A stretch of 62,917 bases of DNA, the filler included, from Pirum gemmata (lineage: Eukaryota), in the NCBI GenBank assembly GCA_002812295.1. It is 18 parts of 18 records of this genome, joined end to end, with 100 filler letters (N's around TTAATTAATTAA, not from the genome) between each part and the next. Parts side by side here need not be neighbours in the genome. Positions count along the whole stretch, not along the records: positions 6,677 to 9,942 come from PDIN01003044.1; 17 more parts are not named here. One strand, written 5' to 3'. Each line of letters begins with the position of its first letter. Position 1 is the stretch's first letter. Both the position numbers and the translations under genes were made by a program. Below the pieces are notes generated by a model. That model had not been told where the DNA came from. It made no database searches and worked only from the letters and a program-made list of their open reading frames with translations. Positions 8,516 to 9,942 of the stretch are shown here, in pieces.

Positions 8516-9942
8516 ATGAATGACGATAATAACAGAATGACGGAATATCTAAACACACACTATGAAAAACTACGAAAATGTGTTATACGAATACCAATAG
8601 CATTATATGGGTTACCAGAATCAGCCAGATTATGGAATATAGATTTAACGCAAGTAATCAAAGACGCAGAATTTAAACTAAGTATGGTGGAAGAAGGAAT
8701 ACATTATAATTTTAATAGATTATCTCATTTCTCATTTTTTACGTGTGTTGGAAAATGCATCACTGAGCGGGAATCGAACCCACGACCAACTATCAGGTAG
8801 TCCATTTTCCCACGTATTCTCGTTTTTCTTATAGCATATTCTATTACAACACCATATCCATCTAGGCCTCTTCGCTAGGCCTAGCTAGCTGGTTCAGGGA
8901 AGTGTCGGGGACAAGGCGAGCGGAGTCATAGTGCTGATAACGTAACAGATTATCTCATTTCTCATTTTTTACGTGTGTTGGAAAATGCATCACTGAGCGG
9001 GAATCGAACCCACGACCACCTCTCTCCGGGAGTCCACTGAGCTATCAGGTAATCCATTTTCCCACATATTCTCGTTTTTCTTATAGCATATTCTATTAAA
9101 TTTAGACACAAACACATTTGTTGGAATACACACGGACGAACTAGTTATAGCTGGGCCAATTGAGGAATTAATGAAGCACTTAGAAGCAAAATTCGAAGTC
9201 AAACCATTGGGAGAACCAAAACGATTGTTAGGCATGAACTTCATCACATGAATATAAAACAAGGAATGATCGATCAAAGTGATACAATACAAGCATTGAT
9301 TGATCAGTATGGACTAAAAAGCAAACGAATATGTAACACACCAATACCAACACATCTAAAACTAAAGAGACCAAAGGATAAAACGATGAAGCACAAAAAA
9401 TACCCAAAAATGGTCGGTAAAATTAGAAATATAGCAGACGTATCGAGACCAGATTTAGCATATCCAGCATCGCAATTAGGAAGATATTTACATAATAATG
9501 ATGAGCAACACATGGTTGCAGTACAACAAGTAATACAATATTTAAGTAAAACAAAACATTTAAAACTACAATACTACGCCAAACCGCAAACTACAAAAAC
9601 AAAGAAAATAAGAATAACATGTTTCGCGGATTCGTCTTATGCATATTTACAAGATAGAAGATCGGCAATGGGATTAATTATAGTAGTGGAAGGCAACATT
9701 GTTCACTGGGGTAGTAATGCACATGACATGGATGTTTTTGAGTCTTCATGTGAAGCAGAATACGTGGCGAGTAATAATGCATTGACGCAGACATTAAACA
9801 TTAAAGATTTATTACAAGAATTACTACCTGATTATGACATATTAGCGAAAATTTTGACAGATAATGAATTAAATGAACAAATTATTAATGGAACTGCACC
9901 AGTTAGACGATTACGACATGTGGATGTAGCATACCATAGGAT
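8516..9942 (+). pseudogene. Ty1/copia reverse transcriptase-RNase H, degenerate and interrupted by a TRIM
   Basis: ALYGLPESARLW; VGIHTDELVIAG (YVDD decayed); LGEPKRLLGM; SRPDLAY; FADSSYA; DRRS; SSCEAEYVA; TDN; RHVDVAYH. In-frame stop near 9250. Confidence 0.93.
8713..9098 (-). mobile_element. Non-autonomous LTR element (TRIM) with tRNA-derived LTRs (Helenus-like)
   Basis: Two direct repeats (8713-8846 and 8943-9098) flank a 96-bp interior. 5-bp TSD AATTT on both sides. PBS CGTTATCAGCAC. Pol III A box TAGCTCAGTGG and B box GGTTCGATTCC inside the LTR. Removing the element restores the host RT frame. Confidence 0.88.

What the first reader, a model, noticed from the sequence alone, without database searches (positions are those of the whole stretch)
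8708..9103. TRIM with tRNA-promoter LTRs, half-tRNA-Ile primer site and TA..TA ends, nested in a copia RT
Seen: a 386-bp element with two LTRs (134 and 156 bp, differing mainly by a 22-bp deletion) and a 5-bp TSD AATTT. Removing it restores host codons H-Y-N-L-D-T-N-T-F-V-G-I-H-T-D-E. On the minus strand the LTR holds a tRNA-like segment with an A box (9034-9044) and B box (9000-9010); the other LTR has lost the A box. Immediately after the 5' LTR is CGTTATCAGCAC, complementary to the eukaryotic tRNA-Ile(AAU) anticodon arm GUGCU-IAU-AACG if inosine reads as G. The integrated ends are TAATAGA..TCTATTA rather than TG..CA. Established (from recall): Cassandra TRIMs carry 5S sequence, Helenus TRIMs carry tRNA-like sequence in their LTRs, and Bianca-type copia elements use a similar Ile PBS. 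Inference: a Pol III-transcribed LTR parasite in a protist lineage. The PPT is weak.
Basis: partly seen in the sequence, partly recalled or inferred. Interest (0 to 1): 0.8.

Follow-up and report, generated by a model that had tools for sequence, protein, structure and literature searches.

The report
tRNA-bearing mini-retrotransposon in an ichthyosporean
A 386-base gene-less jumping element of an already described kind (Helenus), here in a single-celled relative of animals, carries a tRNA-like piece that likely serves as its promoter and a site that likely binds a cut isoleucine tRNA to start its copying.

Summary
Real. 8713-9098 is a 386-bp TRIM (LTRs 156 and 134 bp, 5-bp TSD) inserted in a decayed copia RT. 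The empty site with one TSD copy appears in 3 of 4 laid runs, and junctions at the same LTR end appear at other sites. The PBS abuts the LTR and pairs with tRNA-Ile positions 40-29, with C opposite position 34. New is the host. A COG8 exon is 100% identical to a Pirum gemmata protein, so this animal relative has the fungal copia-type Helenus, not the animal gypsy type. This copy is degenerate: other copies hold 10 more letters that complete the D arm. Pol III transcription, the helper element and the plus-strand primer are not shown. The scan noted the same kind before in diatoms and a fungus, but not this family. One weak open lead: junctions in one run that read LTR, 14-nt primer site, LTR.

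The parts
8713..9098 (-). Whole TRIM, 386 bp, non-coding
   Evidence: empty-site joint 8707->9099 skipping 391 bases in runs X2, X3, X4
8708..8712 (.). Target-site duplication AATTT, left copy
   Evidence: 5 letters fit either side of the empty-site joint
9099..9103 (.). Target-site duplication AATTT, right copy
8943..9098 (-). 5' LTR, 156 bp, TA...TA (TAATAGA...TCTGTTA)
8989..9051 (-). tRNA-like segment; lacks the 3' half of the D arm in this copy
   Evidence: ARAGORN only at relaxed score; cloverleaf-like fold, z -2.38, 7 of 200 shuffles as good; 10 extra letters in 31 contigs of X1, 2 of X2, 3 of X3
9034..9044 (-). Pol III A box (TAGCTCAGTGG)
9000..9010 (-). Pol III B box, 5' LTR
9055..9062 (-). 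Leader arm, complementary over 8 bp to the trailer at 8980-8987; predicted to extend the acceptor stem
   Evidence: the variant at 8988 carried by nearly all depth in 4 of 4 runs would lengthen the pairing to 10 bp (read by eye)
8982..8985 (-). T4 run behind the tRNA-like segment, 5' LTR (weak candidate Pol III terminator, would need read-through)
   Evidence: the only T4+ runs on the sense strand are this one and its twin in the 3' LTR; the other strand has 6
8931..8942 (-). Primer-binding site CGTTATCAGCAC, no spacer to the LTR; pairs with tRNA-Ile positions 40-29
   Evidence: 22 tRNA-Ile(AAT) genes picked by this motif; ARAGORN fixes the register
8847..8942 (-). Internal region, 96 bp, 55% GC, no ORF
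8847..8861 (-). Position of the polypurine tract; only 9 of 15 purines; can pair back with the PBS end
   Evidence: end-to-end duplex matched by 23 of 2000 shuffles, a test chosen after seeing the fold
8713..8846 (-). 3' LTR, 134 bp, TAATAGA...TCTATTA; A box deleted, B box 8770-8780 and T4 8752-8755 kept
8557..9940 (+). Host: truncated, frameshifted copia RT-RNase H fragment interrupted by the TRIM
   Evidence: RVT_2 fragments; 4 integrase/RT-bearing homologues; other copies lack the insertion and the 2 extra letters at 9244 and continue differently upstream of 8557

Best explanation
This is a decayed copy of a multi-copy, non-coding LTR retrotransposon (TRIM) of the Helenus kind in the ichthyosporean Pirum gemmata, likely transcribed by RNA polymerase III from the tRNA-like piece in its 5' LTR and likely copied and inserted by the enzymes of a copia element using a tRNA-Ile cut after position 40 as primer. 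Shown: two LTRs, 5-bp TSD, empty sites, other insertion junctions at the LTR end, A and B boxes, PBS register. Inferred steps: (1) TFIIIC binds the A/B boxes and Pol III starts a few bases upstream of the tRNA-like segment; (2) it reads through the weak T4 of the 5' LTR part of the time and stops at the same T4 in the 3' LTR, so the tRNA-like block itself is the terminal redundancy (R) needed for strand transfer; (3) the RNA is packaged in copia particles and the 5' half of host tRNA-Ile (I34) primes minus-strand synthesis; the C opposite position 34 is what copying inosine as G would leave; (4) a copia integrase joins the TA ends with a 5-bp stagger. The plus-strand primer is unresolved. This copy is probably a poor template: its A-B spacer is shortened by 10 nt.
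For: Anatomy. Empty site with a single TSD in X2, X3, X4, and a variant empty site in X1; further junctions landing at or within one base of the U5 end (7973->8713 and 8508->8712 in X1, 6956->8943 in X4); dozens of LTR-bearing contigs in X1 (59 at position 8988). PBS pairs with positions 40-29 of tRNA-Ile, the register given for half-tRNA-primed copia elements (PMC1181622 passage); a rough chance bound for such a 12-mer at this spot is 3e-5. Half-tRNA priming is confined to copia lineages in plants (PMC6317226), and fungal Helenus with this PBS type make 5-bp TSDs and are tied to copia (PMC10886601). Other copies complete the D stem and the anticodon stem (read by eye), consistent with a canonical A-B spacing of 33 nt. 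Host: COG8 exon 100% identical over 98% of the query to EukProt Pgem_evm2s8882; Pgem = Pirum gemmata, Ichthyosporea; window GC of 23-37% per 2 kb fits the 28.85% reported for that species.
Against: No transcript or Pol III evidence. No real PPT (9 of 15 purines). No helper found: the host copia fragment has no LTR or PBS in the window and reads HTDE where a homologue has YVDD. TSDs and PBS of other copies could not be listed: 26 joints, 165 variant rows and 244 loose ends were not shown, and the other-site junctions have short sides (26-27 letters) at 80% likeness. The host's own tRNA-Ile gene was not seen; 57 viral tRNA-Ile(GAT) genes match the PBS without inosine, so I34 is inferred. Similarity of the LTR to tRNA-Ile genes is modest (0-91 of 200 shuffles as good across 20 genes). 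The species rests on one 66-residue exon.
Confidence: 0.82

Rival explanations
1. An ordinary Pol II-transcribed TRIM whose LTR passively carries a tRNA or SINE relic; the A/B boxes do nothing.
For: No expression data. The T4 directly behind the tRNA-like segment could stop Pol III in the 5' LTR. Kojima notes that Helenus promoters are unvalidated. This copy has lost parts of the tRNA body in both LTRs.
Against: The tRNA-like block points the same way as the PBS; the sense strand has no T4+ run except the one at the block's end; most other copies keep a complete D arm and canonical spacing; only about 40 nt lie upstream of the block for a Pol II promoter.
Confidence: 0.12
2. A head-to-tail dimer of a tRNA-derived SINE inserted by a LINE.
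For: Two copies of a tRNA-like unit; the window holds poly-A-tailed fragments nearby (8245-8448, minus strand).
Against: No tail; about 40 nt precede the tRNA-like head; inverted termini; an exact PBS between the units; other junctions land on the LTR end and the empty site shows a clean 5-bp TSD.
Confidence: 0.03
3. A MITE or DNA transposon with TA-starting inverted ends.
For: Arms 8707-8723 and 9088-9104 are 88% complementary over 17 nt.
Against: The inverted match inside the element is 7 bp and recurs at both ends of each LTR; long direct repeats and a PBS are unexplained.
Confidence: 0.02

Closest known systems
Fungal Helenus (TRIMp3), e.g. Helenus-2_PTrit and Helenus-15_PHor; Kojima 2024, PMC10886601 (whole main text read; supplement parts 1, 10, 11 of 11 and two searches)
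   Same: Size within 311-1263 bp; tRNA-like A/B boxes in LTRs followed by a short T run; anticodon-loop tRNA-Ile PBS abutting the LTR with the same C opposite position 34; 5-bp TSD. Helenus-11B_PTrit and Helenus-17_PHor have TA..TA LTRs.
   Different: Host is an ichthyosporean; the paper lists only fungi, animals and Selaginella. The two Ile-type families seen have TG-starting LTRs, and the TA..TA ones seen are not shown with an Ile PBS. Published internal regions seen end in G-rich tracts; this one does not. No sequence comparison with Helenus consensus sequences was run; Kojima regards the group as having several origins.
Animal Helenus (bivalves, wasps, fish), same paper
   Same: tRNA-like LTR, similar length
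   Different: They use tRNA 3' ends, make 4-bp TSDs and are tied to gypsy; this animal relative has the copia-type set
Bianca copia lineage; Neumann 2019, PMC6317226 (passages)
   Same: Half-tRNA-Ile PBS that needs inosine at position 34
   Different: Autonomous plant elements; no phylogenetic link to the host RT here was tested
Ty5 / Drosophila copia (Hemivirus) half-tRNA priming; PMC1181622 (passages)
   Same: Priming from nucleotide 40 in the anticodon stem-loop
   Different: Primer is initiator tRNA-Met (reference titles; copia detail recalled); autonomous
Cassandra TRIM (via Kojima's introduction, and PMC7215508 passages; the 2008 paper was not held)
   Same: Internal Pol III promoter in the LTR; transcript runs LTR to LTR
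   Different: 5S-derived promoter; plant hosts; Pol III transcription reported there, untested here
Non-TGCA copia elements; PMC9804982 (passages)
   Same: TATA is one of eight non-canonical copia end types in lotus (154 copies), also reported in Arabidopsis and grape
   Different: Those are full-length plant elements

Membership tests
TRIM | Under 1 kb, two LTRs, no coding region | tested here: met
   386 bp; 156 + 96 + 134
TRIM | 4-6 bp TSD made on insertion | tested here: met
   5 bp; empty site with one copy in 3 of 4 runs. TSDs of other copies not seen
TRIM | PBS next to the 5' LTR | tested here: met
   12 nt, tRNA-Ile positions 40-29
TRIM | PPT next to the 3' LTR | tested here: inconclusive
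   9 of 15 purines; best 12-mer has 9 purines and ends 5 nt before the LTR
TRIM | Dispersed multi-copy family | tested here: met
   Dozens of LTR-bearing contigs and 3 junctions at other sites; no copy number obtained
Helenus | tRNA-derived sequence with A and B boxes in the LTR | tested here: met
   boxes match the TRGCY/YGG and GGTTC motifs given by Kojima
Helenus, fungal type | Anticodon-loop PBS plus 5-bp TSD | tested here: met
   compared
Helenus, fungal type | Copia partner with the same PBS in the same genome | not testable with these tools
   No genome held; no relative of the RT-RNase H in metagenome contigs
Helenus, fungal type | Common descent with rust-fungus Helenus | not tested
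   No alignment to published consensus sequences was run
TRIMp3 | Transcribed by Pol III | not testable with these tools
   No RNA holder on record; validated only for Cassandra
tRNA-derived SINE | tRNA head at the 5' end, A-rich or repeat tail, variable TSD | tested here: not met
   Head is internal, no tail, PBS present
Functional tRNA gene | Cloverleaf passing a tRNA finder, canonical anticodon loop | tested here: not met
   No call at default score; untyped call only at 85% or lower; the loop lacks U33

The most novel reading that the evidence does not exclude
The family replicates without a true polypurine tract, and part of it has shrunk to LTR + a 14-nt copy of the tRNA primer + LTR. 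Three junction types in run X1 read as LTR end, PBS two letters longer than here (tRNA positions 40 to 27), LTR start. That would be the smallest LTR element, or integrated end-joined cDNAs that record reverse transcriptase stopping at modified position 26 of a half-tRNA primer. It would give a direct handle on how half-tRNA-primed elements rebuild their PBS.
Probability: 0.12. Interest if true: 0.65.

Novelty: new member of a known kind. Interest (0 to 1): 0.3.

Why it matters
It extends Helenus-type elements to a unicellular holozoan and shows the copia-type package (half-tRNA primer, 5-bp TSD) on the animal side of the opisthokont tree, where only gypsy-type Helenus were described. That bears on whether tRNA-promoter TRIMs are ancient or arise again and again. 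The species grows in culture, so the untested claim that Helenus LTRs are Pol III promoters could be tested there. No new mechanism is established.

Tried and rejected
No whole genome is held, so no copy census. Window self-BLAST: no further copy. No RNA holder listed; X4 is only guessed to be RNA, and summed contig depth was not used as copy number or expression. Pattern B box + TA + PBS in metagenome contigs: 0 hits. A looser pattern in viral contigs: 2 hits, both the same phage tRNA-Ser followed by a chance match, dropped. Relatives of the host RT-RNase H in metagenome contigs: 147 pattern hits, none confirmed. Self-priming from the LTR's own tRNA-like piece: no support, 246 of 1000 shuffles pair as well. 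Internal region as a whole is not unusually structured (z -0.91). A 13-nt match between the PPT/LTR junction and 8311-8323 (BLAST E 0.83) looked like a helper LTR edge; rejected because it lies in a tandemly duplicated poly-A-tailed fragment with no PBS. TA..TA as a novelty: rejected (2 of the 8 Helenus LTR records that begin with TA end in TA; lotus copia). Host placement by the nucleoside transporter was uninformative (3 hits, 39-43%); the protein atlas gave no result. Not in print, as far as searched: Helenus + TRIM + tRNA + LTR retrotransposon: 4 papers, 3 listed; Pirum gemmata + transposable elements + LTR: 5 papers, listings; passages of one read; ichthyosporea + TRIM terms: 10 of 947 listed, none on the subject; retained primer at circle junctions: 10 of 32 listed, nothing to the point. 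The published repeat tables for this species list Repbase-style family names only in the rows seen. Repbase, Kalendar 2008 and Ke 1999 were not available, and 8 of 11 parts of the Helenus supplement were only searched, so an unseen entry could lower the novelty.

Full report
Observation. The element lies at 8713-9098 between two AATTT copies. It has two direct repeats of 156 and 134 bp that differ by a 22-bp gap and 4 substitutions (about 3%), around a 96-bp non-coding core. Identity between the repeats ends exactly at their inner edges, which sets the TSD at 5 bp. The flanks are collinear pieces of a copia RT (Pfam RVT_2 111-153 and 161-209; integrase/RT-bearing homologues). On the minus strand the 5' LTR carries the window's only A+B box pair; the 3' LTR keeps only the B box. 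The outer ends are TAATAGA...TCTATTA, while the inner end of the 5' LTR is TCTGTTA.

Evidence from other DNA. No genome is held. Four public runs of one coded organism (at most 3 samples and 3 studies; the best holder may be the window's own source) were laid on 6700-9940. In X2, X3 and X4 a contig joins 8707 to 9099, skipping 391 bases with 5 letters fitting either side: the empty site with one TSD. X1 shows a variant empty site (8711->9105). Three more joints link other places of the neighbouring repeats to the U5 end of the LTR (7973->8713, 8508->8712, 6956->8943); their short sides are 26-27 letters, so they are supporting only. Dozens of X1 contigs cover the LTR. Loose ends at 9033/9034 (31 and 25 contigs in X1, also in X2 and X3) show 10 letters that this copy lacks. 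Read by eye they complete the D stem (GCTC/GAGC) and, with the common variant at 9019, the anticodon stem, and bring the A-B spacer from 23 to 33 nt. The common variant at 8988 lengthens a leader-trailer pairing that extends the acceptor stem. So this copy is a degenerate member of a family with a fuller tRNA-like cloverleaf. The loop lacks U33, and no tRNA finder accepts this copy at default score. The tool showed only part of its tables, so TSDs and PBS of other copies remain unlisted.

Primer site. The 12 nt after the 5' LTR pair with positions 40-29 of tRNA-Ile. In 22 of 22 tRNA-Ile(AAT) genes taken from viral contigs by that motif (a selected set; ARAGORN supplies the identity and register), pairing is complete if A34 is inosine. 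Position 40 is the priming point given for half-tRNA-primed copia elements (PMC1181622), and Bianca elements use the inosine-edited half tRNA-Ile (PMC6317226). Against certainty: 57 viral tRNA-Ile(GAT) genes pair without inosine, and the host gene was not seen. Self-priming from the LTR has no support. The PPT position has 9 purines in 15 and can fold back on the PBS end (23 of 2000 shuffles, a test chosen afterwards).

Host. A COG8 exon at 26336-26533 is 100% identical to EukProt Pgem_evm2s8882. Pgem is Pirum gemmata (supplement of PMC5560861), class Ichthyosporea. Low GC and abundant simple repeats agree with the published description.

Mechanism. Most likely Pol III starts just before the tRNA-like block of the 5' LTR, reads through the T4 behind it part of the time, and stops at the twin T4 in the 3' LTR, so the block serves as the R region. 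These two T4 runs are the only ones on the sense strand, against six on the other. A copia particle then supplies RT and integrase, with the 5' half of tRNA-Ile as primer. Structure, insertion scar and PBS register are shown; promoter use, read-through, helper and plus-strand primer are inferred or open. The interrupted copia fragment cannot be named as helper: it is truncated, frameshifted, shows no LTR or PBS here, and reads HTDE at the YVDD position.

Comparison. Kojima 2024 (PMC10886601) defines Helenus as TRIMs with tRNA-like LTRs. Fungal families use anticodon-loop PBSs including tRNA-Ile, make 5-bp TSDs and depend on copia; animal families use tRNA 3' ends, 4-bp TSDs and gypsy. Two published Ile-type internal regions start with the same pattern, including the C opposite position 34. 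Two published LTRs are TA..TA, and TATA ends occur in plant copia. The host list has no protist. The element meets the structural definition, with the PPT inconclusive; descent from fungal Helenus was not tested. The scan's own notes record the same kind in diatoms, a Basidiobolus-like fungus and a probable clubroot pathogen; none is this family.

Open lead. In X1 only, three joints (8843, 8844 and 8846 to 8931; depths 573, 3488, 1092; short sides 22-26 letters; 80% likeness) read on the sense strand as LTR end, PBS, LTR start, with no internal region. Where the letters between are given, the PBS is two letters longer than here and would pair with tRNA positions 40-27; 16 of the 22 stored tRNA-Ile genes fit those two letters. 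Position 26 is commonly dimethylated in eukaryotic tRNAs and blocks reverse transcriptase (recalled). These may be end-joined cDNAs with a retained primer copy, insertions just behind another copy's PBS, a minimal subfamily, or alignment artefacts; the tool warns that such short joints are often spurious. It could not be followed further.

Verdict. Observation confirmed, interpretation supported, novelty limited to a new host lineage for a described kind. Interest 0.3.

Noticed in passing
window 8843-8846 to 8931, run X1: Joints reading LTR end + about 14-nt PBS + LTR start, without internal region or PPT; see the section on the most novel reading.
   Followed up: partly
window 9129-9140 (+): The host copia RT reads HTDE where a homologue reads YVDD; unknown whether this is family-wide or damage to this copy.
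   Followed up: partly
window 6903-7830 (-): Broken gag-like frame with two CCHC-like zinc knuckles (seen by eye; no meaningful Pfam hit), opposite in direction to the RT fragment; multi-copy in all four runs.
   Followed up: partly
window 7900-8190: Unidentified repeat with high contig coverage in all four runs; another TRIM junction falls in a copy of it.
   Followed up: no
window 8188-8448 (-): Fragment ending in a long poly-A with a tandem duplication of its last 45 bp; looks like the 3' end of a non-LTR retroposon.
   Followed up: partly
window 5475-5704, 27000-27239, 43096-43322, 57525-57748: Four copies, about 90% alike, of a roughly 225-bp element whose first copy starts and ends with inverted CAGTAGGGG-type ends; probably a MITE.
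   Followed up: no
window 50203-52014 (+): Long intron-poor frame with a dermatopontin domain (PF14704, E 4e-14) behind an unassigned N-terminal half.
   Followed up: no
window 45379-47826 (-): Intronless NAD-dependent epimerase/dehydratase frame (PF01370) with a long low-complexity tail; possibly of viral or bacterial origin (untested).
   Followed up: no
window 31248-34052 (-): 934-residue open frame at higher GC with an internal 335-bp repeat and no Pfam match.
   Followed up: no
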